63,248 nt of DNA from a virus (lineage: Duplodnaviria > Caudoviricetes): positions 1 through 63,248 of the IMG/VR virus record IMGVR_UViG_3300020042_008450; one strand, written 5' to 3'. Made by a program: the position numbers and the translations under genes. The first letter of the stretch is position 1, and each line of letters starts with the position of its first letter. The notes beneath the pieces were generated by a model, which ran no database searches, was not told where the DNA came from, and was given only the letters and a program-made list of their open reading frames with translations. Shown one piece after another: positions 37,080 to 61,628 of this stretch.

Positions 37080-37097
37080 CTGGATTTGTTGTATAAT
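37069..37097 (+). promoter_or_regulatory. Sigma70-type promoter heading the biosynthetic island
   Basis: TTTACT-17 nt-TATAAT; -10 ends 5 nt before ATG 37103 (leaderless geometry). Confidence 0.55.
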
Positions 37098-37102: not shown

Positions 37103-37411
37103 ATGGATACTGATGCTTTAATTGCCCACGCACGAACACGTTTTGATCATGTGACTGCACGCCGTGTGCTCAAAGAAAAATACCAAGCCCGAATGATCTT
37201 TGGTTATTGCGGAGGCCTGTGGCGTGCCGGCCCCGAACTGTTGGCAGTGCTACAGTCTATTCCTGTTGAGGACGATGTGGTGTTACTGGATCTTTATGAT
37301 ACTCCTGTAAAGATAAGTCCGTTAGAATTACAACACCTGGCCTTTGATCGTTGGCAAGAACAGCTGAATGCCTGGCTCGTTGAACATGATGAGTTGAGTA
37401 AAAAACGATGA
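37103..37411 (+). CDS. Hypothetical protein
   Basis: ATG ORF, ATGA-coupled to the next gene. Confidence 0.7.
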   Translation: MDTDALIAHARTRFDHVTARRVLKEKYQARMIFGYCGGLWRAGPELLAVLQSIPVEDDVVLLDLYDTPVKISPLELQHLAFDRWQEQLNAWLVEHDELSKKR

Positions 37412-38220
37412 CCACTGGCGCACTTATTTTTGCCTTCAACAACGAGGCCACTGATTATGTGCGAATGGCCACCTGGAGTGCTGAAAACATTCGTCGGCAC
37501 TTGAACATTCCAGTTGCAGTGGTCACTGACGCAGATCCTGTAGATCCTAGACTCAAAGACTTTGATCAAGTGATACATGCAAAACCAGACGCTGGAGGAA
37601 CACGGTGGTTTGAAGATTATGCCAACACAGTGACCTGGCACAATGCCGGCAGGGTCAACGCATATGATCTAACACCCTGGGATCACACCTTGGTCTTGGA
37701 TGCTGATTATGTGGTAGCCTGCTCAGATCTAACATCAATCTTGGAATACAACACAGACTTTGTGTGTCACCGATCTGCCGTCAACATGAACACCGGGAAT
37801 CCCTTGAAGGGACTTAATGTTTTTGGGCGACACAACATGCCCATGTGGTGGGCCACAGTAATGGTATTCCGCAAATCAAACACTGCACAATACATATTTG
37901 ATTGCATGCAAATGATTCGAAACAACTGGGAACATTACCGAGCACTGTATGGCATTGACAAAAAGACCTATCGTAATGATTTTGCTTTGAGTATTGCTCT
38001 GGGAATTGTGAGCGGTCAAACAGGCCGGGTAGATGAAATACCCTGGCCCTTACTGACTGTGATGCCAGACACCGTACTGACTGGAGTTGCAGACGAAACT
38101 GATGCATACAACATTGCATATCACGACACAAACAACCAACCAAAATATATTCACTGGCGCGGCACCGATTTCCATGCCATGGGCAAACAGCACTTGGAGA
38201 ACATAATTGCGGCCCACTGA
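37408..38220 (+). CDS. GT-A fold glycosyltransferase (GT8-like)
   Basis: DY..MA..SA..I...V.VVTD; TPWDHTLVLDADY with DxD; RND and late H.MGK. Confidence 0.65.
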   Translation: MTTGALIFAFNNEATDYVRMATWSAENIRRHLNIPVAVVTDADPVDPRLKDFDQVIHAKPDAGGTRWFEDYANTVTWHNAGRVNAYDLTPWDHTLVLDADYVVACSDLTSILEYNTDFVCHRSAVNMNTGNPLKGLNVFGRHNMPMWWATVMVFRKSNTAQYIFDCMQMIRNNWEHYRALYGIDKKTYRNDFALSIALGIVSGQTGRVDEIPWPLLTVMPDTVLTGVADETDAYNIAYHDTNNQPKYIHWRGTDFHAMGKQHLENIIAAH

Positions 38221-38968
38221 AGAACAAGGTTATGTTGTGGTAGCAGTCAACACAGCCACAGTTGATTATGTTCGTTGTGCTGCTATGTTGGTGCAGAGTC
38301 TAAAAACACAGCATCCTACTGCAAGAGTGTGTTTGATAACAGATCAACAAGTAACAGATCCCTTGTTTGATTATGTGCATGTGCTGCCGGTCGTATCAGA
38401 CAATGCCTATGCCAACGACGCAGCAGTATTCCAGTTAACGCCGTTTCGTGAAACAATCAAACTGGAAGCAGACATGCTGATAGCCAGTCCTATCTCACAC
38501 TGGTGGGACTTGTTTAGACACCGTGATGTTGTGATCAGCACAGGCTGTAGAAACTGGCGCGGCGATATCAGTGCTGTGCGTTATTATCGCCGAGTGTTTG
38601 ACGAAAATCATTTGCCTGATGTGTACAATGCTGTTACTTACTGGCGACTGAGTGACACTGCTAAAGAGTTTTTTGGACTAGTACGTGATATCTTTGCCAA
38701 TTGGGAACACGTTCGTACACTGATAAAATTTTCGCCGGTCACAGCAGACACTGATCTAGTGTATGCTATGGCTGCACAGATCATGGGCGAACACAGAGTT
38801 ACCATGCCCTTTGCTACATATCCACAAATTGTTCACATGAAACCGCATCATGCAGGCACAACAGATCGGTGGACACACGAACTAACCTGGGAACATGATC
38901 CGTTACGCATCAACACCGTGGCACAATGGGGCGCATTCCATTATCACATCAAGGACTGGCAGTCATGA
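38207..38968 (+). CDS. GT-A fold glycosyltransferase (GT8-like), paralog of 37408
   Basis: DYVRCA..L..SL...VCLITD; TPFRETIKLEADM with ExD; late HMK. Confidence 0.6.
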   Translation: MRPTEEQGYVVVAVNTATVDYVRCAAMLVQSLKTQHPTARVCLITDQQVTDPLFDYVHVLPVVSDNAYANDAAVFQLTPFRETIKLEADMLIASPISHWWDLFRHRDVVISTGCRNWRGDISAVRYYRRVFDENHLPDVYNAVTYWRLSDTAKEFFGLVRDIFANWEHVRTLIKFSPVTADTDLVYAMAAQIMGEHRVTMPFATYPQIVHMKPHHAGTTDRWTHELTWEHDPLRINTVAQWGAFHYHIKDWQS

Positions 38969-39300
38969 CACCTGATGAATTCTGGAGCATATTGCATGCA
39001 GTGCCCGACACACACCCTGTGAGTTATAGATTGTATCATGACTCTAATGGTAACCCATTATTTTACAGCATGGATGATGTGCCAGGTACATACATTGAAA
39101 TAGATCCGGTGACCTTTGCTCGCAGTCCCATGCATGTGTGTGTACGTGATGGAAAACTAACGCAACGTGTGTGGACTACAACTACGAAACTTGTGCCTGC
39201 TGACTCTGGACCCCCTTGCGATCTTTGCAATGTCGCTGTAATCGTCAGTGAGCACCGGCCCCATCAAAAATGGACCAAGAAAACTTATGAAACAAATTGA
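38965..39300 (+). CDS. Hypothetical protein (start moved to MTPDEFW)
   Basis: ATGA overlap with the upstream stop at 38965-38968. Confidence 0.65.
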   Translation: MTPDEFWSILHAVPDTHPVSYRLYHDSNGNPLFYSMDDVPGTYIEIDPVTFARSPMHVCVRDGKLTQRVWTTTTKLVPADSGPPCDLCNVAVIVSEHRPHQKWTKKTYETN

Positions 39301-40210
39301 TATAGCAGACCTAGATGTGATATTTTTGACATTTGATGAGCCCAAGAAAGAAGAATACTGGGCAATCATACGCAACATGATTCCTTGGGCCAAACGTGTG
39401 GATGGTATCAAAGGGTCAGACGCAGCACACAAAGCCGCTGCTGCTGCCAGCGACACTGAACGTTTTATCTTGGTTGATGGTGACAATTTACCATCTGCAG
39501 ATTTTTTCAACAAAACATTAGAATTACCCACGGCTGACTATGAACATGCAGTGTTCCGTTGGCGTGCTAGAAATCATGTGAATGGATTAATGTATGGCAA
39601 CGGTGGCATCAGTAGTTGGACTCGTGAATTTGTGAATGCCATGCGTACCCACGAAGCCACAGATGGACGCACAGAAACACAAGTTGAGTTTTGTTTTGAT
39701 CCCTTGTACTGGGCCATGCACGACTGCTACAGCACAACATACCCGGCACAGTCGCCATTTCATGCTTGGCGTGCTGGATTCCGCGAAGGTGTAAAAATGT
39801 GCCTGAACAAAGGGGCTAAACCCACTGTAGAAGAATTCAAAAATCAAGTGCTGAGGAATCTTGACCACTTGACCATATGGCACAACATTGGTGCAGATGT
39901 AGAGCATGGAGAATGGTGCATGGCCGGCGCTAGACAAGGCACGTATATGACCATGCTGACTAACTGGGATTACAAACTGGTACAAGACTTTGATGCACTA
40001 GCTGAAATTTGGGCCACAGTAAAAGATAACCAACCGAGAATACTCGGCAACCTAATAGGTCCAGAAATTGGCACACAGTTGGATCTGCCAATGGCCATAT
40101 TGGAATCCGAACAAAGTGCATTCTTCAAATATCACTACCGATCGAACTGGCACAATCGAGGTGTCATGGTCAGAGAGATGGATGTGATCCGACAACAAGA
40201 GGGGTGGTAA
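39287..40210 (+). CDS. GT-A fold (GT2-like) glycosyltransferase-like protein
   Basis: DVIFL.FDEP...V.G.KG...AH..AA...T..F..VDGD with DxD; N..NGL.YG.GG; AWRAGFREG.K; ATG start at MKQID. Confidence 0.6.
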   Translation: MKQIDIADLDVIFLTFDEPKKEEYWAIIRNMIPWAKRVDGIKGSDAAHKAAAAASDTERFILVDGDNLPSADFFNKTLELPTADYEHAVFRWRARNHVNGLMYGNGGISSWTREFVNAMRTHEATDGRTETQVEFCFDPLYWAMHDCYSTTYPAQSPFHAWRAGFREGVKMCLNKGAKPTVEEFKNQVLRNLDHLTIWHNIGADVEHGEWCMAGARQGTYMTMLTNWDYKLVQDFDALAEIWATVKDNQPRILGNLIGPEIGTQLDLPMAILESEQSAFFKYHYRSNWHNRGVMVREMDVIRQQEGW

Positions 40211-41145
40211 TGTATCCATTGGGGTGCACCAGTGACCGTATATGGGATATGTCGTCCCTGGTCCAATATCTGCTGCAGAACCAACACAAATCTATTTCCA
40301 TAGATGTTCAGCCTGAAGCCATATGTTTGCATAATCTTGGATTCTATAAAATATTGGATTGTTTTGACTTTGAATCAGTGACCATTCACACTTGGAATCC
40401 TTTGGAAACACATCTCACCCACACAATTGAATACAAAGGACATAATTTTTGGTTTAAACGGCAAGCTGACATAACACCAAGACAATGTGAATATACTGGT
40501 GACAAAACTTTTTTATGTTTGTACCATAGGCCCACTGCTGGCCGGCTGGCATTGGCCGGCTATCTTCAAAAAAATCACGCAGATTCCAGCTTGATTCATT
40601 TCAGCACAGATACCTCAGATAACAGTCTGATTCAATTTGAGTTTGATAAGTTGTTGTCATGGCATCTGCCCAGCGTAGAAAACGCCGCTAGATTGTTGCC
40701 TTCTTTGCCTATGTTGTTGGGCCCTAGAGATCAATACACGGCTTCATTGGGATATTTTTACACTGATCCATTGACTGAACTTTACAGAGAAATACTAGTT
40801 GATGTGGTAGTTGAAAGTCATGTGGCCGGAAATACATTTTTCCCCACAGAAAAAACTGTGAGGCCAATGCTGTTAGGCAAACCATTTGTGGCATTTGCCA
40901 GCTGCAACTATTTGGCATATCTACGCCAAATGGGCTTTAGAACATTTTCAGATTTCTGGTCTGAAGATTATGATGGGTACGAAGGTAAAGAAAGATTGAT
41001 ACGAATATTTTCAGTACTGGATACCATAGCTGCAATGACTGCTGGCCAACGTGAAACAATGTATTGGGATCTTCAATACACTCTGCAACACAATCAAAAG
41101 ATATTGGCCCAGAGACAGTGGTCGGATAACATAACATTGATATGA
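40204..41145 (+). CDS. TEK-motif protein 1 (GT10/GT-B-like putative glycosyltransferase)
   Basis: VVVES....FFPTEKTVRPM..GKPF....YLAYLRQMGFRTF..FW.EDYD; start may be ATG 40210. Confidence 0.5.
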   Translation: MVMYPLGCTSDRIWDMSSLVQYLLQNQHKSISIDVQPEAICLHNLGFYKILDCFDFESVTIHTWNPLETHLTHTIEYKGHNFWFKRQADITPRQCEYTGDKTFLCLYHRPTAGRLALAGYLQKNHADSSLIHFSTDTSDNSLIQFEFDKLLSWHLPSVENAARLLPSLPMLLGPRDQYTASLGYFYTDPLTELYREILVDVVVESHVAGNTFFPTEKTVRPMLLGKPFVAFASCNYLAYLRQMGFRTFSDFWSEDYDGYEGKERLIRIFSVLDTIAAMTAGQRETMYWDLQYTLQHNQKILAQRQWSDNITLI

Positions 41146-42524
41146 TTGATAAAAGTACATTCATGAGATCTGCCGAACAGATGAAAGCAGACCTTGGTCC
41201 AGCATTGTGCCTGGCCAAATGGAAGCAGGTCAGCCTGCATTTACCTACAGGATTAAATAACTCATGCTATCACCCACCATTGCACTCTATAGATCCCGTG
41301 GCCATAGCTCAAGATCCTGATGCGCTACACAATACACAGCACAAGAAAGCTCAACGTGTGATGATGCTACGTAATGAACAGCCTGCAGAATGTAGCTACT
41401 GCTGGAACATGGAAGGTGAAGGCAAACTCAGTGATAGACACTACCGTTCGGGTGAGCCCTGGGCCGCAGTAGACTTTGAAAAGATAAAGAACAGCACAGG
41501 TGAAGAAAATGACGTTATCCCTAGCTATGTTGAAGTTAACTTTAATAACGCTTGCAATCTTAAGTGTAGTTATTGTAGTCCTCAATTTAGTAGCAGTTGG
41601 GCAGATGAAGCCCAGAGACTGGGCGCTTATCCTACCAGTACTCCGCATAACAGCCCCGATCATTTTACTGGGAATAGGCGCATTATTCCTGCCAGAGAAC
41701 ATAATCCTTATGTAGAAGCATTTTGGCAGTGGTGGCCCACGCTGTACCCTGAGCTCAAACACTTTAGAATGACCGGTGGGGAACCGCTGTTAGACAAGAA
41801 CACATACAGAGTATTCGACTATGTGTTAGCAAACCCCAAGCCGGACCTGCACTTAAACGTTACTAGTAACTTCTCTGTGGATGAGAAGTCTTGGCAGAAG
41901 TACTTGGGTTACGTTAAACAGCTATGCCAAGAAGGTAATCTAGAACACTATATGCAGTATGTTAGTTTAGATGGCTGGGGCCCTCAAGCAGAATACATGC
42001 GCCACGGCTTAGATTTTAATTTGTTATGGGATAGAGTTAACCAGTTCCTAACAGAAGTACCTTCTTACAATAGCTTAACGTTTATTGTAACAATGAACAA
42101 TCTATCAGTAACCAGCCTAGAGAACTTGTTTGCGGGTATATTAGGCCTGCGTCGAGTGTATAGTAAGACTTATCAACGTGTGTGGTTTGATACTCCTGTG
42201 CTGCGTGAACCAGCATGGCAATCACTACAGACGCTACCAGAGCCTTATGCAAACAAGCTAGAACATTTATGGGCATGGATGGTACGCCAAATTGAAACAG
42301 AAGAGGATCCTTTTCACGGCTTCAAAGACTATGAGCTAGCAAGACTAGATCGTGACATAGCCTGGATGCAAGCTGCACAGCAGCAAGATCATTCACAAGC
42401 ACGAGCAGACTTTTATCGTTTCTTTAGTGAACATGATCGGCGACGAGGCACCAACTTTTTAGAGACCTTTCCTGAAATGAGGTCCTGGTGGGCAGAATGT
42501 GAGTATCATGCTAGGACCGCATAA
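41142..42524 (+). CDS. Radical SAM protein 1 with N-terminal twitch/SPASM-like domain
   Basis: CNLKCSYC, GGEP; N-terminal CLAKW...SCYHPP...CSYCW. Confidence 0.9.
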   Translation: MIDKSTFMRSAEQMKADLGPALCLAKWKQVSLHLPTGLNNSCYHPPLHSIDPVAIAQDPDALHNTQHKKAQRVMMLRNEQPAECSYCWNMEGEGKLSDRHYRSGEPWAAVDFEKIKNSTGEENDVIPSYVEVNFNNACNLKCSYCSPQFSSSWADEAQRLGAYPTSTPHNSPDHFTGNRRIIPAREHNPYVEAFWQWWPTLYPELKHFRMTGGEPLLDKNTYRVFDYVLANPKPDLHLNVTSNFSVDEKSWQKYLGYVKQLCQEGNLEHYMQYVSLDGWGPQAEYMRHGLDFNLLWDRVNQFLTEVPSYNSLTFIVTMNNLSVTSLENLFAGILGLRRVYSKTYQRVWFDTPVLREPAWQSLQTLPEPYANKLEHLWAWMVRQIETEEDPFHGFKDYELARLDRDIAWMQAAQQQDHSQARADFYRFFSEHDRRRGTNFLETFPEMRSWWAECEYHARTA

Positions 42525-43608
42525 CATAGTAGTAGACGAGTGGGCCGAAGTATGGGACCTGCTACGACCCTATGCTGTGGAAAGCTTCTGGGACTGGAAA
42601 TCAGTAATCTTTGATCCCAACAAGTTTTATATTGTGGGCCGTGTGGTACTGAAAGAAAACTGGCAATCAATCACAGACTTGGCACGCCAGTATCCTGGGC
42701 AAATTGTGTTTTGCAATCCTGCAGAAGGATCTGAAACAATCAAGCTACAGCTCTCAAGATTGCGAATTACTGATCTGGTGCAGAATCGCAGCATACGCAT
42801 GATCACCAGCGGCAACCTAGAAGCAGGGTTTCATGAACTCAGCACAGACTGCTACTTTTCAAACATAGTGGAATACACTGAAAATCTAGCGGCAGCTGAG
42901 TCAGATGTGTACGCCGAGCCAGTCAAACGTTATGAATTTTTGTTTTTGAATGGACGACTCAGACCACATCGCAAGTATCTAATAGATGCACTACGCAGTC
43001 AAGATCTCTTGGAATATGCACTGTGGACCAATTTGGGCAGTCAGGTTGAAATGGAGTTTACGTCTGTGCTCCAACCAGCCAAACTAGAACACGTTAGACT
43101 GCTGCCCCCGGAATATGAAATACCTCGTGCCAGGCCCAATCTCAAGGCCAGTTTGAATTCAGGATTTGTCAAACATGAATTGTTTGGTAATACCTGGGGT
43201 GATGCCATTGTTAATCCGCAGGCCTACATGGACACATGTTTTAGTCTGGTAACAGAAACCATTTTTGATTACCCGTACACATTTAGAACAGAAAAGATCT
43301 GGAAGCCCATGATCATGTGTCATCCATTTGTGGTGGCTGCCAATGCAGGCTACTACAGAGACCTAAAGAATGCAGGATTTCAAACCTTTGGTCACCTGAT
43401 CGACGAATCATTTGATACCATAGACAACGCAAAAGACCGCGCTGATGCAGTGGTTGCAGCAGTCAAAGATATATGTTATAATGGTGCTAGTGGTTTCTTG
43501 ACTGCTGCTCGAGAGGTGTGTAAATACAATTATCAACACCTACGCGAGCACAATGCTCGTGAACGAAACCGTCTTCCGCAGAATTTAATAGCATACCTAA
43601 ATGAATGA
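42499..43608 (+). CDS. TEK-motif protein 2 (GT10/GT-B-like)
   Basis: FLNGR.RPHR; SLVTET...RTEKIWKPM..CHPF...GFQTF..LIDESFD. Confidence 0.5.
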   Translation: MSIMLGPHNIVVDEWAEVWDLLRPYAVESFWDWKSVIFDPNKFYIVGRVVLKENWQSITDLARQYPGQIVFCNPAEGSETIKLQLSRLRITDLVQNRSIRMITSGNLEAGFHELSTDCYFSNIVEYTENLAAAESDVYAEPVKRYEFLFLNGRLRPHRKYLIDALRSQDLLEYALWTNLGSQVEMEFTSVLQPAKLEHVRLLPPEYEIPRARPNLKASLNSGFVKHELFGNTWGDAIVNPQAYMDTCFSLVTETIFDYPYTFRTEKIWKPMIMCHPFVVAANAGYYRDLKNAGFQTFGHLIDESFDTIDNAKDRADAVVAAVKDICYNGASGFLTAAREVCKYNYQHLREHNARERNRLPQNLIAYLNE

Positions 43609-55134: not shown

Positions 55135-56305
55135 GAATGTCCTTGATCAAGCTATTTAAACGCTGCGTCTTGAGTTGCGCAAATAACTGTTGGTTGTGTT
55201 CTATGTCTGCTCGTGCGGTTTCAAACCGATCTGCCAATCTATGCCGTGCTTGACCAACTGCATCACACAAGCAAATCCAGCGTTGGGTATTATCCTCAAT
55301 ACGGTCATACATGGTGTCTAGCACTGTGTCAAAGGTCTTGTAGCCCAGGTCGCGCAGAGCTTGTAAACTGCCTGCAGGTCCAGCAACAAAGAACAATTGT
55401 CCGTGCTTGATGGGCTTGAAAGTTTTTTCAGTCAAGAATGTGCCGCCAGACTGATCTGCGTCCCAGTGTGTTTCCATCACAATGTTGCAATAGCTGTTGG
55501 CATGGTATTTGGATTCAGTGTCAGAATGATTGTTGCGCTGTGCCTGACTCAAGTGATCACTGGTATAAGGAGCAGCAGCCAAGAAACTCAGTGTAGCCGC
55601 ACGAAGATCAGATATGCTGTCAATTTCAATTGGATTGTCTGTGCCCAGTTCACCAGTTTCACAATAACTCCAGTAGCTGTTGTTCAACAGGCCTTGTCGA
55701 TGCAGGTCAGCCATGGCTGTGGCCCGCCATGATTTGTGCAGTCTGTTTAGCACTGTGAACTCATGTTCACGTGTTTGTGCATGTATTGGCAACGGTGCTA
55801 TGAGTTGATTACGCTGCCAATACCACAGCTCAAAGTCTGCAAAATATACAAAACCTGGAATATCTTGGGCAGCAGTGTTGGCGCTAACAAACACATAACA
55901 ATCGGGCGGCAGCAAATAATCCTGTGCCAGTTCATCCAGCCGGTCTTTGATACGAGTAGGATTATCTCCTTCGTGATAGTAAAACAACACACGCAGTTGT
56001 TTTGTTCGTAGTTTCTTGCGCACAACAGGGCCCATGAGTGCAAAATAGTTTATGCCAAAGTCAAAAAATCCCAGGCCCACAGGATAGTATGTGTTGGCTG
56101 GTAACTCATCATTGATGTTGTATAGCTGAACCGCTACGTCATGATGATCGCAATACTCTTGCAGCCTTAGCGGTATGGTATGCGGCCAGTGCTGACCAAA
56201 CTCGCGCCAGCCCTGTGTGTAGGGTCTTGCTTGATGCTGTGCCAAAGCGGGATATATTCTGCCCCTAATCACTCGGTCAGCTACAAAATTAAAGCTCAAT
56301 GGCAT
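55118..56305 (-). CDS. TEK-motif protein 5 (GT10/GT-B-like)
   Basis: LNR.HK.WR; NIVMET...FLTEKTFKPIKHGQLF...LRDLGYKTF. Confidence 0.5.
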   Translation of the reverse strand: MPLSFNFVADRVIRGRIYPALAQHQARPYTQGWREFGQHWPHTIPLRLQEYCDHHDVAVQLYNINDELPANTYYPVGLGFFDFGINYFALMGPVVRKKLRTKQLRVLFYYHEGDNPTRIKDRLDELAQDYLLPPDCYVFVSANTAAQDIPGFVYFADFELWYWQRNQLIAPLPIHAQTREHEFTVLNRLHKSWRATAMADLHRQGLLNNSYWSYCETGELGTDNPIEIDSISDLRAATLSFLAAAPYTSDHLSQAQRNNHSDTESKYHANSYCNIVMETHWDADQSGGTFLTEKTFKPIKHGQLFFVAGPAGSLQALRDLGYKTFDTVLDTMYDRIEDNTQRWICLCDAVGQARHRLADRFETARADIEHNQQLFAQLKTQRLNSLIKDIHEQYN

Positions 56306-57386
56306 TTAACATCTCGTTCAGTTCAGTCCATAATACTGCTTCAAAGCCGCCATTGTAAAAATGATTCCAGTTGTGCTCAATAACTTCTTGAGCTTCATCG
56401 AACAATTCTTGCTTGCCTTCTGGAGGCAACTCGTCCAAGCTACGTAACAAGCTGGCAATGCGTTCAATACGTACATTGTCCTCTGCAGAATCATAACTCT
56501 CGTCCCAGATATCTCCAAATGTTCTAAATCCGTAGCTGCGCAGGTATTCCAAACTGCCCTTGGTACCCACAACAACAAATGGCATGCCTAGGGCAATAGG
56601 CTTGAATGTTTTTTCGGTCAAGTGATGCCTACGACCTGTGGCCACAGTCTCTGTGACCAGGTATAACAGACTTTCAGCTGACTCATCAAACAGGCTAAGC
56701 CAACAACTATGCATGGGATGATCAGTTTCGTCTGCAAAATTAATGGGCAATGTTTGCGCTGCAAAAACAGATTCAATGTCTGGATATTTTGCTGTCAATG
56801 GCTTGACTGCATCGTGTATGCTGATGTTCTCTGCTGGACAGATGTTGGGACAACTGATATGATTATTCATCATGTCATTCTTGAATATATAATACAGCAT
56901 CTCTAATCTATGTTGTCGTTCACCAGCAACAATACGATTGGGGGCAATAAATGTCTTTGTAATAGTGCGTTCTGACCAGGGTTTAATCAAGAACGTTTTA
57001 TCGTATCCTCGATACCAATCTAGTGCGGCCCAGCCATGAAAGAAGTAATAATAGCTTTTCCATCCATACCTGACACATAGAGCATCTACATTATCGCTAT
57101 CACGCTCACTAGTACATATAGCACCAATTGGAGCACGGTTGTCTTGTAAATCTGCATTGTTTGCTCTAACACGTTCAAATGTTGCGGTGTGTATGCTCAA
57201 ATGAATAGGCTCTTGGTCAAAAAAGAATATATAATTGTGTTCGTGTACATCTTCTCTACCATACCCAATAACACTATCGGGATCACTGCGTCCAAAAGGA
57301 TCGCACATCAATGCACGTACACCAGGACAATTTTGGTGCAACCAAGGCCAAAAAGTGTTGTTGTAAATTTCATCTATTCTAATCAT
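56289..57386 (-). CDS. TEK-motif protein 6 (GT10/GT-B-like)
   Basis: PNR....RQHR; YLVTET...HLTEKTFKPIALGMPF...LRSYGFRTF..IWDESYD. Confidence 0.5.
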   Translation of the reverse strand: MIRIDEIYNNTFWPWLHQNCPGVRALMCDPFGRSDPDSVIGYGREDVHEHNYIFFFDQEPIHLSIHTATFERVRANNADLQDNRAPIGAICTSERDSDNVDALCVRYGWKSYYYFFHGWAALDWYRGYDKTFLIKPWSERTITKTFIAPNRIVAGERQHRLEMLYYIFKNDMMNNHISCPNICPAENISIHDAVKPLTAKYPDIESVFAAQTLPINFADETDHPMHSCWLSLFDESAESLLYLVTETVATGRRHHLTEKTFKPIALGMPFVVVGTKGSLEYLRSYGFRTFGDIWDESYDSAEDNVRIERIASLLRSLDELPPEGKQELFDEAQEVIEHNWNHFYNGGFEAVLWTELNEMLNAIEL

Positions 57387-59598
57387 GTTTGACGTTTTCT
57401 ATTCGGGAATTAAACCTAACCAATTTGCGCATGAGCGTGAGGCAGATAGTATTGAGCATGCACAGACATTGTGCCGCACAAGGTATTTCTGGTGGATCAC
57501 ATACTTAGCTGATTATGGCACACATGATTGGGATTTTCAACCCGTGCCCTGGCAAGGCGAATACACTCACACATGGCCCAGTCAACATCATGAGTATTCG
57601 GGCACCTACCTTGTGCCTAAGTCAGGTGAGATCAAATATCACTTTCATGATCAAATTATCCCTAATAAAAGCTCAACCATTCATTTCTATACTGCAATGT
57701 CAACCGCAGAGTTTGATTACTCCTGGGCACCACATCCACATGACCCTCCTTACATCTATGTGTTTGGGAATCAGTGGTGGCCAGCAGAGAAGATGCCCAC
57801 AGTAGAATATCATGTGCCAGGCGCAACTGAACGCAAGTACATGACAACACCAAGAGCCAAACTAGCACAAAATCTCAACCAGCCCTGGTACAACATGATC
57901 AACAGCGACATGGACTATTCATGGATGCCAGATCCTGGGGATCCTCCTTACATCTATGTGTTTGGTAATCAGTGGTGGCCAGCAGAGAAGATGCCCACTG
58001 TGGAGTATCGTGTGCCAGGCGCAACTGAACGCAAGTATGTTTCATGGCCACGTGCTAGTTTGCTGTCAGACTCTAGCAATTGGACTGTGCCCGACTCAGT
58101 TGCTCGTGAAGATGTAGATTTCACCTGGGTGCCTGATCCCGGTGAACCCGCCTATGTGTATCAGTTTGCTACACAGCATCAAAAGACCGGCGGTCCTGTG
58201 TATCGTGTACCTGGTGCTGTAGAAGTCAAGTATCTTGCAGAACTAAAAATTCGCACAGTAGGCAAGGCCACAGCCATATACGAAATTGATCACATGGATG
58301 GTGCTGCTGGCCAAATAGCCAACACCACTCGACGAGTGCGATACTTTGACAACTATAGAGATACCTTGATACGCTTGGCCAAGAGTATAGGCACAGAACA
58401 CGAATATGTTTGGGTATGTAGTAGCATCTGTGATTACACTGACTTTGACTTCTCCTGGCATCCCGAACAATGGCAAGCCACAATGCTGCATGTGTTTGCC
58501 AGTAATGACCAAAAGTTTGGTGACACATTCTTCATGCATGTGCCTACCTTTGCTGAGTCAGCAGAACGCAAGCCATTGCTGGAATGGTACGATTGTAATT
58601 TTGTTGACAAAAATGTGTCACGCCGGCGCATGCCTGTGATTGAGCATGCTGGCGACAGCAATGTTGACGCAGTTAAAGCTACTGAATGGGCCGGCCCACT
58701 GGCCCTGTTTACTACCAATGGTTTGCCTATGACTATCCCGGCTGTGAACTTGTGGCGCTCTGAAACCAAAACAATAACACCGCTGAGCTCGGGAGCAAGT
58801 GCAGTAGTTGTTCCAAAGTCTGCTGTACCATACATAAAAACGCAAATGTATGATTATCCCTACATTGACAAAACACAACAACAGCGTCACGGTGACGACA
58901 AATTAGATATTGTGTTTATTTCAAACGGTGAACCCAATGCCAAATCCAATTTTTTGCAGATGACAATGTATCTGGCCAACGAGTCAAGGTACACAAACCG
59001 AGTTCACTTAGTAGAAGGTGTAAACGGACGAGTGGCAGCATACCACGCGGCTGCTCGAGCCAGCACTACACCTTGGTTCTTTGCTGTGTTTGCCAAACTG
59101 GAAGTGAATCAAATGTTTGATTGGACCTGGCAACCAGATCGTATGCAACAAGCCAAACACTATATCTTTCATGCTCAGAATCCTGTTAATGGTCTAGTGT
59201 ACGGACATCAGGCCATGATTGCGTACAACCGGCAACTGGCACTAGCCAATCCCGGAGTAGGATTAGACTTCACGCTGGACTCACCGCACGAAGTGGTGTC
59301 TATCTTGAGTGGCGTAGCACACTACGACACCTCACCGTGGTCATCTTGGCGCACAGCATTTAGAGAAGTGTTAAAACTTCGAGCCAGCTTGCCAGATGTG
59401 GAAAATGAATATCGTCTAAACAAATGGCTTGATGTCAACAGTGACGAAGCAGATCCGCAGTGGAGTCGACTTGGTGCCGAGGATGCTGTGGAGTATTATG
59501 ATCAGGTTGACGGAGACTTTGCAGAGCTCAGAAAAAGCTATGAATGGGCCTGGCTTGCTAGCTATGCCTTTATCAAACGCAGTCTAGTACCGAACTAA
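57385..59598 (+). CDS. Multi-module protein: Trp/Pro-rich repeats plus C-terminal GT2-like domain paralogous to 39287
   Basis: Repeated DxSWxP..PPYIYVF units; C-terminal DIVFISNGEP...V.GV.GR.AAY.AAA...NPVNGLVYG...SWRTAFRE.LK. Confidence 0.6.
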   Translation: MFDVFYSGIKPNQFAHEREADSIEHAQTLCRTRYFWWITYLADYGTHDWDFQPVPWQGEYTHTWPSQHHEYSGTYLVPKSGEIKYHFHDQIIPNKSSTIHFYTAMSTAEFDYSWAPHPHDPPYIYVFGNQWWPAEKMPTVEYHVPGATERKYMTTPRAKLAQNLNQPWYNMINSDMDYSWMPDPGDPPYIYVFGNQWWPAEKMPTVEYRVPGATERKYVSWPRASLLSDSSNWTVPDSVAREDVDFTWVPDPGEPAYVYQFATQHQKTGGPVYRVPGAVEVKYLAELKIRTVGKATAIYEIDHMDGAAGQIANTTRRVRYFDNYRDTLIRLAKSIGTEHEYVWVCSSICDYTDFDFSWHPEQWQATMLHVFASNDQKFGDTFFMHVPTFAESAERKPLLEWYDCNFVDKNVSRRRMPVIEHAGDSNVDAVKATEWAGPLALFTTNGLPMTIPAVNLWRSETKTITPLSSGASAVVVPKSAVPYIKTQMYDYPYIDKTQQQRHGDDKLDIVFISNGEPNAKSNFLQMTMYLANESRYTNRVHLVEGVNGRVAAYHAAARASTTPWFFAVFAKLEVNQMFDWTWQPDRMQQAKHYIFHAQNPVNGLVYGHQAMIAYNRQLALANPGVGLDFTLDSPHEVVSILSGVAHYDTSPWSSWRTAFREVLKLRASLPDVENEYRLNKWLDVNSDEADPQWSRLGAEDAVEYYDQVDGDFAELRKSYEWAWLASYAFIKRSLVPN
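57745..58037 (+). repeat. Direct repeat, approx. 95 bp near-identical, 198-bp period
   Basis: cctccttacatctatgtgtttgg.aatcagtggtggccagcagagaagatgcccac...gtgccaggcgcaactgaacgcaagta at 57745 and 57943. Confidence 0.95.
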
Positions 59599-60706
59599 TA
59601 ATGTAGTCAACTTCTGAGTCTGTGAGCTCAGGATAGATCGGCAGACTCAGTGCTCGTCTACTCAATGAACTTGCAGCACTGAGAATACTGGATCCAGCAT
59701 ACTGTTGATATGCCGCTAGTTCGTGCAATGGATGTTGGTAATGTACTCGAGTCTCTATGCCTGCAGACCTCAGGTCGACTTGCAGTTGATCCCGATTGTT
59801 AGTGTCAATAACAAACTTGTGGAAACAGTGAGTAGCCACATTTGAGTCGTCAATCAAACAGCGAAACGGTGCTGCACCAAATGCCGCCATATACTGCCGT
59901 GCAATTTTTTCTCTACGAGCCTGCCATTGATCAAGATACACTGTCTTGACCATCATTTGCGCACAGTCTACTTCGCTCATGCGCGAGTTGGTGCCTGTGT
60001 GTGCATGACTGGATCTTTTACCGTTGTCACACCAGTTACGTGCATAGTCACTTAGATTGCGATCGTTGGTGACTACAGCACCACCGTTGCCGTAGTTGTT
60101 TAGATTTTTCATAGGATCAAAACTAATGGCACTGGCTTCACCCATCCGATGGCAATGGTTGGATAACCAGTGTTGTGCTGCATCTTCAATTATCAATGGT
60201 GTAACACGTCGCAGACTATCGGGCAATGCTGAACCATACAATCCAATGCCAATCTTATTGGGCAATGCTGAACCATACAATCCAATGCCAAGTATGGCTC
60301 GGTAATGTAAATCTGGCGGAATATCGCTAAATTTCATGTTGCCATATGCATCGGTATCGATCAAGTGTATGTTCCAGCCTGCTCGTACAAATGCATTTGC
60401 ACTGGCAGGAAATGTCATGGCAGGAATCAATATCGTGGGCGGTTTTGTCTGGAGATACAGCTTATGCTCTGTGCGGCCTGGGCGGTAATAACCAGCCAGT
60501 ATCTCCAGGGCCTGTGTACCTGAGTGACACAGCACTGCATAATTTGAATGATTCTTTTGAGCCAGCCATTCCTCAAACTGCTGTGTGAACGGGCCGTTCA
60601 TGAGATTGCCAGATGCTAGAACCTGGTCCGTCGCATCCAGTATCTCCTCTCGTAGATTGTTATACTGTCTTTGTAGACCAGTAAACGCTATTTGAAAGCC
60701 ACTCAT
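59573..60706 (-). CDS. DegT/DnrJ/EryC1/StrS family PLP-dependent sugar aminotransferase
   Basis: SGT.AL, P.MTF.A.ANA, EDAAQ, SFDPMKNL (PLP lysine), G.GG, NSRM, LSLPIYPEL; start at MSGFQ. Confidence 0.92.
   Translation of the reverse strand: MSGFQIAFTGLQRQYNNLREEILDATDQVLASGNLMNGPFTQQFEEWLAQKNHSNYAVLCHSGTQALEILAGYYRPGRTEHKLYLQTKPPTILIPAMTFPASANAFVRAGWNIHLIDTDAYGNMKFSDIPPDLHYRAILGIGLYGSALPNKIGIGLYGSALPDSLRRVTPLIIEDAAQHWLSNHCHRMGEASAISFDPMKNLNNYGNGGAVVTNDRNLSDYARNWCDNGKRSSHAHTGTNSRMSEVDCAQMMVKTVYLDQWQARREKIARQYMAAFGAAPFRCLIDDSNVATHCFHKFVIDTNNRDQLQVDLRSAGIETRVHYQHPLHELAAYQQYAGSSILSAASSLSRRALSLPIYPELTDSEVDYIISSVLDCV
60221..60291. repeat. Perfect 32-bp duplication, 39-bp period, in frame
   Basis: gggcaatgctgaaccatacaatccaatgccaa at 60221 and 60260; encodes GIGLYGSALP twice. 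Confidence 0.95.
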
Positions 60707-61628
60707 AGTATTTCTGGAATCCTTGTTCAACGTCTACTTTGGGATCAAAGCCCAGGATGGTTCTTGCACGATCGATGTTGAGCGCGCCGCGGCTGGGAAA
60801 GTCTGCATCTCGATCGCGACATTCAATGGTACCAGAGCCCACAATTTTTACAATCATTTCAGCTGCTTGTAACAAACTTATTGAATGTGATTTTGTGATG
60901 TTGTATGTTCGGTTGGCACTCATGATTCTAGTTGCAGCAGCAACCACACCGTCAGCAGCATCATCCACATAGGTGAAGTCCAGTGTTTCTGACGCTCCGT
61001 TGACCTTAAGCACACCACCACGCATGGCTGTTAACATAAACTTGGCAACCACACGATCTTCTACATCCAGGGGCCCGTACACAGCACTGGGTCGAAGTAT
61101 CACATACTCCATGCCAGTTCTGCGAGCATAGTCTTTGACCAACCATTCTCCGGCCAGCTTCATGATGCCATACTGTCCTTGCGGTCTGCATTCGTCATCT
61201 TCCAGCACTTGGTCTTCAAAATCGCCATAGACCATGCTGCTGGACATGTACACAAAACGATTGACCTTGTGCTTTTTGGCACTCTCAAGAAGATTGATTA
61301 GACCACGCATCATGACATCAGCAGCGTATGCAGGGTTGGCATTGACTACTTTTTGTCTGGGAAAGCTGGCACAGTGTATGATCACATCTGGTGTCTCAGC
61401 ACCAATGATTGTGTCCATGCGATCTGCATTTTCAATGTAGTCATGATAGTGAGCACATGGTGCTAACTTTTTAAGACGCTCTCCAATCAAGTAGTCAACT
61501 TCTTCACGCGGAATAATACCGTAAGTGGTTTGACTATCTACTATGCTCACTGTGTCTTCACGCTGCTGCAAACGAGCTGCTACATTGTGTCCAATAAGAC
61601 CCAGCCCACCAGTTATCAATACTTTCAT
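60660..61628 (-). CDS. NAD-dependent NDP-sugar epimerase/dehydratase (extended SDR)
   Basis: ITGGLGLIG, SSSMVYG, YGIMK (YxxxK), LR...VYGP, DFTYVDD. Confidence 0.93.
   Translation of the reverse strand: MKVLITGGLGLIGHNVAARLQQREDTVSIVDSQTTYGIIPREEVDYLIGERLKKLAPCAHYHDYIENADRMDTIIGAETPDVIIHCASFPRQKVVNANPAYAADVMMRGLINLLESAKKHKVNRFVYMSSSMVYGDFEDQVLEDDECRPQGQYGIMKLAGEWLVKDYARRTGMEYVILRPSAVYGPLDVEDRVVAKFMLTAMRGGVLKVNGASETLDFTYVDDAADGVVAAATRIMSANRTYNITKSHSISLLQAAEMIVKIVGSGTIECRDRDADFPSRGALNIDRARTILGFDPKVDVEQGFQKYYEWLSNSVYWSTKTV

What the first reader, a model, noticed from the sequence alone, without database searches (positions are those of the whole stretch)
37103..61628. Approx. 24.5-kb phage-encoded glycan-building and tailoring island (candidate undescribed system)
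Seen: about 24 contiguous, overlap-coupled genes directly after the tail module. They include about 10 glycosyltransferase-like ORFs of three types, 5 radical SAM enzymes, a carbamoyltransferase, an SGNH protein, an amidinotransferase, a DegT aminotransferase and an NDP-sugar epimerase. Known: epimerase/dehydratase plus DegT enzymes make NDP-amino sugars; amidinotransferases convert amines to guanidines (StrB1); NodU/TobZ enzymes O-carbamoylate sugars; twitch radical SAMs such as BtrN oxidise sugar-like substrates. Inference: a self-contained route to a complex cationic oligosaccharide. With no flippase, polymerase or obvious membrane protein, a cytoplasmic acceptor is favoured: virion proteins (a glycan shield or adhesin) or phage DNA (anti-restriction/anti-CRISPR hypermodification). 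I know of no characterised pathway with this composition, although similar gene clusters may be common in uncultured aquatic T4-like phages.
Basis: partly seen in the sequence, partly recalled or inferred. Interest (0 to 1): 0.9.

Follow-up and report, generated by a model that had tools for sequence, protein, structure and literature searches.

The report
Jumbo-phage sugar-building and radical-SAM island
An uncultured giant lake-water phage carries, right behind its tail-fibre genes, a conserved 24.5-kb block of soluble sugar-transferring, sugar-tailoring and iron-sulfur "radical SAM" enzymes that most likely builds an unusual positively charged sugar chain, probably on the virus particle, although the product and its target are untested.

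Summary
Window 37103-61655 holds 24 tightly packed genes plus a 33-codon micro-ORF. They include six paralogous GT-B proteins (one folded), a GT-A enzyme, a repeat protein with a DxD-less GT-A-like domain, and two GT8-like proteins (lead only). There are also five N-terminal-twitch radical SAM enzymes (NCBIfam NF033640), a carbamoyltransferase, an amidinotransferase, a DegT aminotransferase and an SDR. The "SGNH" call rests on motifs only.

The window is a fragment (CheckV 18%) of a roughly 330-kb T4-related jumbo phage from freshwater. The first half of the block is syntenic in all 80 related loci kept of 280 found. The second half is syntenic in 5 of 5 near-complete relatives.

New here:
- The block starts at a conserved terminator plus sigma-70-type promoter, not the late-type motif of the fibre genes.
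- No protein has a membrane segment.
- Five relatives lack hydroxymethylase, C5-methyltransferase and DpdA, which weakens the DNA-modification reading.

The best reading (0.4) is cytoplasmic glycosylation of virion proteins with a radical-edited amino/guanidino/carbamoyl glycan.

This scan found the same island earlier on at least 33 other genomes. I found no paper describing it; the nearest is the pelagimyophage "host recognition cluster".

The parts
37052..37097 (+). Intrinsic terminator hairpin (37052-37071) overlapping a sigma-70-type promoter, TTTACT-17 nt-TATAAT (37069-37097). The ATG of the first island gene lies 5 nt after the -10 hexamer, so the mRNA may be leaderless.
   Evidence: Scan. 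The same three elements occur in 61 of 62 distinct orthologous upstream sequences.
37103..37411 (+). Conserved 102-aa protein of unknown function; first gene of the island.
   Evidence: No Pfam or PHROG hit. Orthologue at 45% identity or more in 79 of 80 loci.
37408..38220 (+). GT8-like 'DxD' protein 1. The fold was not tested.
   Evidence: No Pfam, PHROG or NCBIfam hit. Atlas nearest named clusters are Nucleotid_trans/GT8 at 0.95-0.96. Present in 80 of 80 loci. 31% identical to an RsoM2USA ORF.
38207..38968 (+). GT8-like paralogue 2, with ExD in place of DxD.
   Evidence: 27% identical to 37408. Hits phrog_1903, unknown function. Present in 80 of 80 loci.
38926..39300 (+). Conserved 124-aa ORF of unknown function.
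   Evidence: tblastn orthologue in 70 of 80 loci at 45% identity or more. No family hit.
39248..40210 (+). GT-A-fold transferase with a nearly invariant DxD (D77, D79) and a C-terminal helical domain. It is the most conserved enzyme of the island.
   Evidence: AF2 pLDDT 92.2. Foldseek top hit is the PBCV-1 capsid glycosyltransferase 2p6w, E 1.2e-4. VIA Z 9.3, rmsd 3.1, 140 aligned. 71-90% identity in 80 of 80 loci. 1205 clusters at 50% identity.
40204..41145 (+). TEK-family GT-B paralogue 1; a variable gene.
   Evidence: blastp to the other TEK proteins. At 45% identity or more in only 7 of 80 loci.
41142..42524 (+). N-twitch radical SAM 1.
   Evidence: NF033640, 319.6 bits. Present in 56 of 56 full-flank loci. 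34% identical to RsoM2USA ORF349.
42499..43608 (+). TEK-family GT-B paralogue 2; a core gene.
   Evidence: blastp. A match follows the 41142 orthologue in the loci, at 45% identity or more in 36 of 56 full-flank loci.
43601..44938 (+). N-twitch radical SAM 2.
   Evidence: NF033640, 300.8 bits. Present in 56 of 56 full-flank loci.
44928..46187 (+). N-twitch radical SAM 3.
   Evidence: NF033640, 392 bits. Pfam SPASM at residues 31-96, ahead of the radical SAM core at 135-278. Present in 56 of 56 full-flank loci.
46184..47395 (+). N-twitch radical SAM 4.
   Evidence: NF033640, 336.7 bits. Present in 53 of 56 full-flank loci.
47388..48317 (+). TEK-family GT-B paralogue 3; variable.
   Evidence: 32% identical to 48318. 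Rarely conserved at this place.
48318..49322 (+). TEK-family GT-B paralogue 4; this is the one folded.
   Evidence: AF2 pLDDT 93.9. Foldseek hits are TarM, GtfA/B, EXT1/2 and SdgB. VIA Z 12.7 to H. pylori alpha-1,3-fucosyltransferase and 12.6 to T4 beta-glucosyltransferase. E229-K230 are invariant in 38 sequences.
49291..50598 (+). N-twitch radical SAM 5.
   Evidence: NF033640, 287 bits. Conserved wherever the flank reaches it.
50591..51631 (+). Conserved 346-aa protein of unknown function.
   Evidence: No Pfam, NCBIfam, PHROG or PDB hit. 66-86% identical in 8 orthologues.
51831..51932 (+). 33-codon basic micro-ORF whose stop overlaps the carbamoyltransferase start (ATGA).
   Evidence: 73-94% identical copies directly before the carbamoyltransferase in 5 of 5 near-complete relatives and in 13 further loci, plus one copy cut by a locus end.
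51929..53407 (+). NodU/CmcH-family carbamoyltransferase.
   Evidence: Pfam Carbam_trans_N and _C. phrog_1601, E 1e-95. 70-82% identical in 5 of 5 relatives.
53381..54142 (-). Variable 253-aa protein, SGNH-like by motif only.
   Evidence: Weak DUF6071 hit, E 0.0015. Nothing in NCBIfam, PDB or PHROGs. No orthologue in L087-L091.
54091..55134 (-). Amidinotransferase of the AGAT/StrB1/SxtG superfamily.
   Evidence: Profile against PDB sequences, E 2.7e-17 to 1.9e-12, with the C-terminal catalytic-Cys stretch aligned. 82-88% identical in 4 of 5 relatives.
55118..56305 (-). TEK-family GT-B paralogue 5.
   Evidence: blastp. Present in 5 of 5 relatives.
56289..57386 (-). TEK-family GT-B paralogue 6.
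   Evidence: blastp. Present in 5 of 5 relatives.
57385..59598 (+). Repeat protein: four units of about 65 aa, followed by a GT-A-like domain that lacks DxD.
   Evidence: Alignment shows DGD replaced in 6 of 6 sequences. The repeat motif occurs 2-18 times and orthologues are 603-2047 aa long. No Pfam, PHROG or PDB hit.
59573..60730 (-). DegT/DnrJ/EryC1 PLP-dependent sugar aminotransferase, carrying a 13-aa in-frame duplication.
   Evidence: Pfam E 3.6e-56. Best NCBIfam is PseC, below its cut-off. Duplication shown.
60660..61655 (-). NAD-dependent SDR, NDP-sugar 4,6-dehydratase/epimerase-like.
   Evidence: Pfam Epimerase, E 3.2e-44. Best NCBIfam is dTDP-glucose 4,6-dehydratase, below its cut-off.

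Best explanation
The island is a virus-encoded, fully cytoplasmic glycosylation system. It is a core module of a freshwater jumbo-phage clade.

Proposed steps (all inferred; no activity was tested):
1. The SDR and the DegT aminotransferase turn a host NDP-hexose into an NDP-amino (deoxy) sugar.
2. The amidinotransferase converts an amine into a guanidine, and the carbamoyltransferase adds a carbamoyl group.
3. About nine catalytically plausible glycosyltransferases assemble an oligosaccharide. These are six GT-B 'TEK' enzymes, the GT-A 39248 and the GT8-like pair.
4. Five anciently diverged N-terminal-twitch radical SAM enzymes, interleaved with the GT-B genes, edit the sugars by H-atom abstraction (epimerisation, oxidation or deoxygenation).
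5. The repeat protein with a dead GT-A domain acts as a scaffold or glycan binder.

The most likely acceptor is a phage structural protein, above all the Ser/Thr-rich fibre proteins encoded immediately upstream. The enzymes are made from the island's own sigma-70-type promoter, before or independently of the late structural genes, and would persist to decorate them.

Shown: the families and folds, the conservation, the lack of membrane segments, and the promoter architecture.
For: - Enzyme families and folds are established.
- All five radical SAMs keep both cluster motifs. Each has its own orthologue at 62-95% identity, against 20-33% between paralogues.
- The island always lies right after the fibre genes, in 80 of 80 loci. 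In distant Ralstonia phage RsoM2USA a minimal core (GT8-like pair, two 39248-like genes, one N-twitch radical SAM) sits after the tail sheath and structural genes.
- There is no membrane segment, flippase, polymerase or priming transferase in the island.
- 0 of 5 near-complete relatives carry ThyA-type, C5-MT or TGT/DpdA genes that would give DNA a handle for sugars.
- The best structural relatives include protein glycosyltransferases (GtfA/B, SdgB, GtfC) and the PBCV-1 capsid glycosyltransferase. Among BFVD (viral) matches is Mimivirus L138.
- The upstream proteins 34329 and 36086 are fibre-like and rich in Ser, Thr and Gly.
- In relative G003 another N-twitch radical SAM and a TPR-GT9-like ORF sit next to the major capsid gene.
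- The core enzymes are as conserved as the structural proteins. That fits a virion function better than a host-specific one.
Against: - No product or acceptor is shown.
- The island has a sigma-70-type promoter like those of the gp55 and gp47 homologues. It has no late-type TAAATA motif at any of 18 + strand island starts, against 5 of 12 structural-gene starts. Virion decoration genes would more simply be late.
- The folded GT-B is equally close to T4 DNA beta-glucosyltransferase (Z 12.6 against 12.7).
- The GT-A Z-scores (about 9) are only moderate and are shared with nucleotidyltransferases.
- Out-of-island N-twitch radical SAMs have no GT-B or GT-A neighbours in any of 11 regions examined, so the family need not act on sugars.
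- The capsid-adjacent radical SAM is seen in 1 of the 3 relatives where gp23 was found.
- The Tet/JBP search had no positive control.
Confidence: 0.4

Rival explanations
1. Host-envelope remodelling. The soluble transferases act early in infection on lipid-linked or nucleotide-linked precursors of the host's surface polysaccharide. The host's own flippase and ligase then export an altered glycan that blocks superinfection or the re-adsorption of progeny.
For: - The sigma-70-type, non-late promoter fits an early host-directed function.
- The authors of the pelagimyophage study proposed this role for glycosyltransferases, with radical SAM cassettes, in the tail-fibre 'host recognition cluster' (PMC7029224, passages read).
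- GT8- and GT10-like enzymes are typical of LPS synthesis (recalled).
- Peripheral transferases need no membrane segment.
Against: - The island has no priming phosphoglycosyl transferase, flippase, polymerase or ligase.
- The core is strongly conserved across 80 loci, whereas O-antigen-type loci and the published host recognition cluster are hypervariable.
- The host is unknown.
Confidence: 0.15
2. DNA hypermodification. The transferases glycosylate phage DNA bases, and the tailoring enzymes decorate the sugars to evade restriction and CRISPR.
For: - The folded GT-B matches T4 beta-glucosyltransferase at Z 12.6 and phage HY126 glycosyltransferase at Z 11.7.
- Early-type promoter.
- ThyX lies next to the island.
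- Phage GT-A and GT-B enzymes that add up to trisaccharides to 5hmC exist, some of them near structural genes (bioRxiv 10.1101/2023.12.21.572611, passages read).
Against: - 0 of 5 near-complete relatives (75-99% complete) have a ThyA-type hydroxymethylase, a C5-methyltransferase or a TGT/DpdA, and the controls rang. Tet/JBP was also absent, but that search had no control.
- Ten GT-like genes are far more than known DNA glycans need.
Confidence: 0.1
3. The radical SAM enzymes modify protein rather than sugar, for example by epimerisation or cross-linking of a structural protein as in RiPP maturases. The transferases then glycosylate the same protein.
For: - SPASM/twitch radical SAMs are often peptide modifiers (recalled). 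NCBIfam secondary hits include sactipeptide and other peptide maturases at weak E-values.
- 7-17 N-twitch copies per related genome exceed the cut-off. Most lie outside the island among unrelated genes such as RNR, gp46/47 and gp23, with no sugar enzymes beside them.
Against: - No precursor-like small ORF or RiPP recognition element was identified.
- Inside the island the radical SAM genes are interleaved with GT-B genes in a fixed order.
- Twitch enzymes such as BtrN act on sugar-like substrates (recalled).
Confidence: 0.1
4. A free cationic oligosaccharide or aminoglycoside-like metabolite is made early in infection. It acts on host translation or on competing phages.
For: - The enzyme set parallels aminoglycoside clusters: DegT aminotransferase, amidinotransferase related to StrB1, a TobZ/NodU-family carbamoyltransferase, twitch radical SAMs and GT-B enzymes. 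The parallels themselves are recalled.
- All proteins are soluble.
- Early-type promoter.
Against: - No cyclitol-forming enzyme (DOI or inositol-phosphate synthase) appeared in any family scan of the island.
- There is no exporter or self-resistance gene.
- About nine transferases imply a much longer chain than known aminoglycosides have.
Confidence: 0.07

Closest known systems
Autonomous glycosylation systems of giant viruses (PBCV-1 A64R and partners; the Mimivirus L136-L138 fibril cluster)
   Same: - Both are virus-encoded soluble glycosyltransferases plus NDP-sugar aminotransferase/dehydratase enzymes working in the cytoplasm.
- 39248's best Foldseek hit is the PBCV-1 capsid glycosyltransferase.
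- Mimivirus L138 is among the BFVD matches of the folded GT-B.
- Paper PMC4691112 was seen only as a search listing and the start of its abstract. The gene details are recalled.
   Different: - The host here is a bacterium.
- Five radical SAM enzymes, an amidinotransferase and a carbamoyltransferase are added.
- Sequence identity is about 10%.
- No glycan has been shown on this phage.
NCBIfam NF033640, N_Twi_rSAM (twitch domain-containing radical SAM protein)
   Same: All five radical SAM proteins exceed the curated cut-off and keep both Fe-S motifs.
   Different: - The family has no reaction assigned. I found no paper naming it. The phrase 'twitch domain-containing radical SAM' gave only general SPASM/twitch papers.
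- Here it is expanded to 7-17 copies per phage genome.
Host recognition cluster (HRC) of pelagimyophages and cyanomyophages (Zaragoza-Solas et al. 2020, PMC7029224)
   Same: It is an island within the tail-fibre region of T4-related aquatic phages that holds glycosyltransferases (GT8 most often) and radical SAM cassettes (passages read).
   Different: - The published cluster is hypervariable, in phages roughly half this size. It was described only by annotation, with host O-chain change proposed.
- The present island is a conserved, ordered core module with its own promoter.
- I did not test homology between the two.
Phage DNA glycan hypermodification clusters (5mYOX/ThyS plus GT-A/GT-B; bioRxiv 10.1101/2023.12.21.572611) and T4 beta-glucosyltransferase
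   Same: - Both involve phage GT-A and GT-B enzymes with partner sugar epimerases.
- T4 BGT is structurally tied for best match of the folded GT-B.
   Different: No enzyme that would make a hydroxymethyl base was found in 5 of 5 relatives.
Serine-rich-repeat and SD-repeat protein O-glycosylation (GtfA/GtfB, GtfC, SdgB) and wall teichoic acid TarM
   Same: - These are the top Foldseek matches of the folded GT-B.
- They are cytoplasmic glycosylation of repeat proteins, and they use an enzyme/pseudo-enzyme pair. That resembles active 39248 alongside DxD-less 57385.
   Different: - TM-scores are only 0.37-0.42 and identity about 10%.
- The repeats of 57385 are not Ser-rich.
Aminoglycoside and other sugar-antibiotic pathways (StrB1, TobZ, BtrN; recalled)
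   Same: The same enzyme classes are present: amidinotransferase (StrB1, E 2.5e-13), O-carbamoyltransferase family, twitch radical SAM and DegT.
   Different: - There is no cyclitol synthase.
- The twitch domain is at the N-terminus rather than the C-terminus.
- There are many more glycosyltransferases.

Membership tests
NF033640 N_Twi_rSAM | Score above the curated cut-off (170 bits) over the whole model | tested here: met
   287-392 bits for all five proteins.
NF033640 N_Twi_rSAM | CxxxCxxC radical SAM cluster motif, plus an N-terminal Cys set for an auxiliary cluster placed ahead of the core | tested here: met
   C139, C143 and C146, together with C31, C50, C92 and C95, are invariant in the five paralogues. 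A Pfam SPASM hit lies N-terminal to Radical_SAM in 3 of 5, one of them below cut-off.
NF033640 N_Twi_rSAM | SAM cleavage and a defined substrate | not testable with these tools
   No member with a known reaction was found.
GT-B glycosyltransferase superfamily (TEK proteins) | Two Rossmann-like domains matching solved GT-B enzymes over the full length | tested here: met
   For 48318: pLDDT 93.9. All 13 Foldseek matches at E <= 0.001 are GT-B enzymes. VIA Z 12.7, rmsd 3.9, 264 aligned. The other five are linked only by blastp.
CAZy GT10 fucosyltransferase | Match to Pfam PF00852 Glyco_transf_10 | tested here: not met
   No Pfam hit for any of the six TEK proteins at E <= 0.01. The Atlas neighbour with GT10 scores only 0.81. 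The best Z is to a GT10 enzyme but is tied with other GT-B families.
GT-A (GT2-like) glycosyltransferase: 39248 | GT-A Rossmann-like fold with DxD after the fourth strand | tested here: met
   Foldseek hits are 2p6w, ArnC, TarP and BcsA. Z 9.3 over residues 16-166, but nucleotidyltransferases also reach Z about 8.5. D77 and D79 are conserved in at least 90% of 49 sequences.
GT-A (GT2-like) glycosyltransferase: 39248 | Pfam GT2-family HMM match | tested here: inconclusive
   3 of 49 family members give weak Glyco_tranf_2_3 or Glycos_transf_2 hits (best E 0.004). The window protein gives none.
CAZy GT8 (37408 and 38207) | Pfam PF01501 match or a GT-A fold | tested here: inconclusive
   0 of 28 members hit PF01501. 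There is no PDB sequence hit. hhalign to the 39248 family gives probability 0.8%. Atlas features place it at 0.95-0.96 beside Nucleotid_trans/GT8 clusters.
Amidinotransferase (AGAT/StrB1/SxtG, guanidino-group modifying superfamily) | Homology to solved members across the length, with the C-terminal catalytic Cys and the His-x-Asp stretch kept | tested here: met
   E 2.7e-17 in three stretches. The C-terminal Cys-bearing stretch and the H-x-D stretch are both aligned to AGAT. Which residues are catalytic is recalled.
NodU/CmcH/TobZ carbamoyltransferase | Both Pfam domains above cut-off | tested here: met
   138.6 and 160.9 bits. The NodU equivalog cut-off is not reached (131.6 against 1000), so this is membership of the family only.
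DegT/DnrJ/EryC1 aminotransferase | Pfam PF01041 over the full length | tested here: met
   191.4 bits, residues 26-381. No equivalog cut-off is reached, so the substrate is unknown.
SGNH hydrolase (53381) | HMM match or a conserved block I Ser and block V D-x-x-H | tested here: inconclusive
   There is no SGNH-family HMM hit and no PDB hit. Block-like motifs are visible in the sequence, but the blocks themselves are recalled.
Phage DNA glycosylation system | An enzyme that makes a hydroxymethyl or other acceptor base (ThyA-type hydroxymethylase, C5-MT plus Tet/JBP, or DpdA) | tested here: not met
   PF00303, PF00145 and PF01702 each give 0 of 5 near-complete relatives, and the controls rang. 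PF12851 gives 0 of 5 but had no control. The window itself is only a fragment.
Wzx/Wzy or ABC-type surface polysaccharide locus | Membrane priming transferase, flippase or transporter, and polymerase | tested here: not met
   No 19-residue window reaches a Kyte-Doolittle mean of 1.6 in any of the 28 proteins.
Virus-encoded virion glycosylation | A glycan demonstrated on a virion protein | not testable with these tools
   Needs purified virions.

The most novel reading that the evidence does not exclude
The island is an early-expressed, wholly soluble factory for a free or polymer-bound guanidinylated, carbamoylated oligosaccharide. Its sugars are rewritten after assembly by five members of an untested radical SAM family. 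In the boldest form, the product is a phage-made aminoglycoside-like effector that acts on host translation or on rival phages rather than decorating the virion.
Probability: 0.07. Interest if true: 0.95.

Novelty: new variant of a known kind. Interest (0 to 1): 0.7.

Why it matters
- It would be the largest glycan pathway known in a bacteriophage, and the first in which radical SAM chemistry edits a viral glycan.
- It would give a first substrate context to an uncharacterised radical SAM family (NF033640) that these phages expand to 7-17 copies per genome.
- The island is a core module of an abundant, uncultured freshwater jumbo-phage clade. More than 8000 clusters at 90% identity exist for one of its enzymes.
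- Its product probably matters for adsorption, particle stability or defence evasion in lakes.
- The GT-B 'TEK' family, the 39248 GT-A family and the DxD-less repeat protein have no Pfam model.

Tried and rejected
Searches that found nothing useful
- Megablast of the island against 50,697 phage records gave no match. tblastn of 41142, 39248 and 37408 found only RsoM2USA, plus two weak Vibrio phage hits for the radical SAM.
- PDB sequence or profile searches gave nothing meaningful for the TEK family, the GT8-like pair, the 39248 family, 53381, 57385 and 50591.
- Member-wise Pfam scans of the GT8-like alignment and the 39248 alignment gave only scattered weak hits.
- hhalign of the two GT-A-like families showed no relation.
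- The profile search with the GT8-like alignment returned 6461 relatives, but none of the 120 listed carries a Pfam label. The fold question therefore stayed open.
- The exact T4 late promoter TATAAATA occurs only at chance level: 2 found against 2.04 expected. I replaced it with the shorter TAAATA motif test.

Host and expression leads that stayed weak
- The genome-contig scan gave 3 loci. Two lie on two contigs of one MAG labelled Haliscomenobacter, which carry 12 N-twitch genes in all, 10 of them in two island-like runs of five. They look like binned phage contigs. This is a weak host hint, not used as evidence.
- Metatranscriptome contigs of four lake runs hold exact pieces of the island. 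Summed contig depth is higher over 33.7-37.0 kb than over the island, and two contigs end at 37049 and 37090.
- The tool states that contig depth cannot rank genes and that DNA may be present in such libraries. I therefore count this only as a weak hint that fibre transcripts stop at the terminator. Parts without cover mean nothing.
- The idea that N-twitch radical SAMs always accompany capsid or fibre genes was rejected: adjacency to gp23 is seen in 1 of 3 relatives, and the other copies sit among RNR, gp46/47 and unknown genes.

Tools and sources not used
- Complex prediction was not used. No binding claim is made.
- Supplementary files of papers were not asked for. The supplements of PMC7029224 and of the DNA-glycan preprint could list clusters like this one.
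- Freeman et al. 2023 on mycobacteriophage virion glycosylation is recalled, not read.

Full report
WHAT THE WINDOW IS
The window is a whole IMG/VR virus record of 63,248 bases that CheckV rates 18% complete. Upstream of the finding lie homologues of several T4-type genes (PHROG hits):
- gp46/gp47;
- the gp55 late sigma factor;
- the gp5 baseplate hub;
- gp6 and other wedge proteins.

These are followed by a 5158-aa ORF and two fibre-like, Ser/Thr/Gly-rich proteins, 34329 and 36086.

Near-complete relatives are 262-343 kb long (CheckV 75-99%). Among 50,697 phage records the only relative is the 344-kb Ralstonia phage RsoM2USA, which its describers place with XacN1 (PMC8504454, passages read).

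The DNA occurs in lake and freshwater metagenomes: 16 runs hold at least half of the sampled words, from at least 13 studies.

THE OBSERVATION
ORF listing gives 24 genes between 37103 and 61655, plus a 33-codon micro-ORF. 21 of 23 junctions overlap.

Radical SAM enzymes:
- Five proteins are N-terminal-twitch radical SAM enzymes, scoring 287-392 bits on NF033640 against a cut-off of 170.
- The SPASM-like Cys set lies ahead of the radical SAM core.
- All seven cluster cysteines are invariant across the five.

'TEK' proteins:
- The six form one paralogous family with no Pfam, NCBIfam or PHROG model.
- 273 metagenomic relatives were found, and every source name listed for them is 'hypothetical'.
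- I folded 48318 with a 38-sequence alignment (pLDDT 93.9). It is a GT-B.
- All 13 Foldseek matches at E <= 0.001 are GT-B enzymes: TarM, GtfA/B, EXT1/2, SdgB, a trehalose-phosphate synthase and a plant UGT.
- VIA-align gives Z 12.7 (rmsd 3.9, 264 aligned) to H. pylori alpha-1,3-fucosyltransferase. That is tied with T4 beta-glucosyltransferase at Z 12.6.
- E229-K230, the 'TEK' motif, are invariant.

39248 and 57385:
- 39248, folded with 49 sequences (pLDDT 92.2), has a GT-A N-terminal domain.
- Its best Foldseek hit is the PBCV-1 capsid glycosyltransferase (E 1.2e-4).
- VIA Z is 9.3, which is only moderate and is shared with nucleotidyltransferases.
- Its DxD is nearly invariant.
- The C-terminal domain of 57385 is a paralogue of 39248 in which DxD and the YGNGG stretch are replaced. 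This holds in the window and in 5 of 5 orthologues.
- The N-terminus of 57385 carries 2-18 copies of a unit of about 65 aa.

The remaining proteins:
- The 37408/38207 pair has no HMM or PDB hit. It remains GT8-like only by Atlas features at 0.95-0.96.
- Carbamoyltransferase, DegT and SDR are clear.
- 54091 is an amidinotransferase. Its profile hits AGAT at 2.7e-17, StrB1 at 2.5e-13, plus HsvA and SxtG, with the Cys-bearing C-terminus aligned.
- The SGNH call for 53381 is not confirmed.

CONSERVATION
280 IMG/VR contigs encode a relative of 39248, and the best 80 were fetched (73 distinct sequences). All keep this order:

33702 - 34329 - 36086 - 37103 - 37408 - 38207 - 38926 - 39248 - [variable TEK] - 41142 - 42499 - 43601 - 44928 - 46184 - [variable TEK] - 49291 - 50591 - carbamoyltransferase

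In the 56 loci with full flanks:
- radical SAMs 1-3 are present in 56 of 56;
- radical SAM 4 is present in 53 of 56;
- median identities are 73-79%, against 61% for the fibre 34329.

The second half is kept in 5 of 5 near-complete relatives. Its order is: carbamoyltransferase, amidinotransferase (4 of 5), two TEK genes, the repeat protein, DegT, SDR and ThyX.

RsoM2USA has only a minimal core after its tail genes: the GT8-like pair, two 39248-like genes and one N-twitch radical SAM.

NEW ANATOMY: THE ISLAND IS ITS OWN TRANSCRIPTION UNIT
Directly after the stop of 36086 lies a GC-rich hairpin at 37052-37071. Its 3' side runs into TTTACT-17 nt-TATAAT, and the ATG follows 5 nt later. All three elements recur in 61 of 62 distinct orthologous upstream sequences. 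The -10 hexamers always keep the form TAnnnT, and the stem sequences differ while still pairing.

The phage's gp55 and gp47 homologues have classical sigma-70 promoters, TTGACA-17-TATACT and TTGACT-17-TAAAAT.

Structural genes carry TAAATA instead:
- 5 of the 12 + strand TAAATA sites in the window lie within 45 nt upstream of structural gene starts, zones that make up 2.2% of the window.
- None lies before any of the 18 + strand island starts.

So the island is probably transcribed by the unmodified host polymerase, in the early or middle period, possibly as a leaderless mRNA. Its timing was not measured.

TARGET
No island protein has a membrane segment, so the chemistry is cytoplasmic.

For DNA as acceptor, a base with a handle is needed. 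Pfam searches of the five near-complete relatives gave:
- ThyA-type hydroxymethylase (PF00303): 0 of 5;
- C5-methyltransferase (PF00145): 0 of 5;
- TGT/DpdA (PF01702): 0 of 5. The control genomes rang in these three searches;
- Tet/JBP (PF12851): 0 of 5, but nothing rang anywhere, so that search is uninformative.

This lowers the DNA reading but does not exclude it, because known phage DNA glycans use exactly those routes (preprint passages).

Several facts favour a virion protein acceptor:
- the fixed position behind the fibre genes;
- the core-like conservation;
- the structural kinship to protein O-glycosyltransferases and to giant-virus capsid/fibril glycosyltransferases.

The early-type promoter, and the published guess for pelagimyophage islands (host O-chain change; PMC7029224), keep a host-envelope role alive.

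THE RADICAL SAM FAMILY IS BROADER THAN THE ISLAND
- The five relatives have 7-17 copies above the cut-off; 5-7 of them lie within the island span and the rest are scattered.
- In 11 out-of-island regions, no TEK, GT8-like or 39248-like gene lies nearby.
- Their neighbours include RNR, a pectate-lyase-like protein, and gp46/gp47 with a radical SAM inserted between them.
- In G003 only, the neighbours are the major capsid gene and a TPR-GT9-like ORF.

That these enzymes edit sugars is therefore an inference from their interleaving with GT-B genes.

LITERATURE
I found no paper that describes this island or assigns a reaction to NF033640. The searches were:
- radical SAM + twitch + phage + glycosyltransferase;
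- the family's name;
- jumbo phage + radical SAM;
- NF033640 / N_Twi_rSAM / N-terminal twitch;
- radical SAM + glycosyltransferase + carbamoyltransferase + phage + tail fiber.

The library lacks most subscription journals, and supplements were closed.

EARLIER NOTES OF THIS SCAN
The same kind of island was reported on at least 33 other genomes, with the same open question about its target. I re-tested the family, fold, synteny and micro-ORF claims here. I added the promoter-class contrast, the absence of DNA-handle genes, the amidinotransferase confirmation and the out-of-island radical SAM census.

VERDICT
This is a real, conserved and undescribed glycan-building and tailoring module. The mechanism is inferred, and virion-protein glycosylation is the leading reading at 0.4. 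In kind it is a new variant of virus-encoded glycosylation. Interest 0.7.

Noticed in passing
window 51831-51932 (+): A 33-codon basic micro-ORF overlaps the carbamoyltransferase start by ATGA. Copies 73-94% identical sit in the same place in 5 of 5 near-complete relatives and in 13 further loci, plus one copy cut by a locus end. In relatives it follows 50591 directly. In the window a 199-nt spacer intervenes.
   Followed up: partly
window 60217-60291 (-), inside DegT: A 39-bp tandem duplication (1.9 copies, 97% match) gives a 13-aa in-frame repeat of the strand-loop just before the conserved EDAAQ stretch. Four orthologues at 52-57% identity, plus a 26%-identical DegT paralogue, each have a single copy. 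It could be a real variant or an assembly artefact.
   Followed up: partly
window 57385-59598; L087-L091: The repeat protein varies from 603 to 2047 aa among relatives, through 2-18 copies of a unit of about 65 aa. Its GT-A-like domain lacks DxD in all six sequences.
   Followed up: partly
G001-G005 (relatives); L095-L105: N-twitch radical SAM genes are expanded to 7-17 copies per genome above the cut-off. One is inserted between the gp46 and gp47 homologues (L100). One follows the major capsid gene next to a TPR-GT9-like ORF (L099).
   Followed up: partly
window 4708, 13980, 14389, 33543, 34305 (+): A TAAATA motif, preceded by G/C and G/T, sits 10-27 nt before five structural-gene starts and looks like this phage's late promoter. 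The gp55 and gp47 homologues have textbook sigma-70 promoters.
   Followed up: partly
window 33556-33705 (+): A small ORF of about 49 codons with a late-type motif just upstream overlaps the start of 33702 by ATGA.
   Followed up: no
window 18060-33536 (+): A single 5158-aa ORF follows the gp6-like wedge gene. RsoM2USA has a 2541-aa structural protein at the same place.
   Followed up: no
L092, L093 (genome contigs): A MAG labelled Haliscomenobacter sp. holds two contigs (183 kb and 148 kb) that each carry a version of the island (82-88% identity to 44928). Across the two contigs, 12 N-twitch genes exceed the cut-off. This is either binned phage DNA or a host hint.
   Followed up: partly
L098 (G001:C1:218000-237999): Two distant paralogues (23-25% identity) of the amidinotransferase lie outside the island in relative G001, near another radical SAM.
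   Followed up: no
window 62222-62250 (-): A sigma-70-like site (TCGACA-17-TATACT, with TG before the second hexamer) at the 3' end of ThyX points into the 61625/SDR/DegT minus-strand genes.
   Followed up: no
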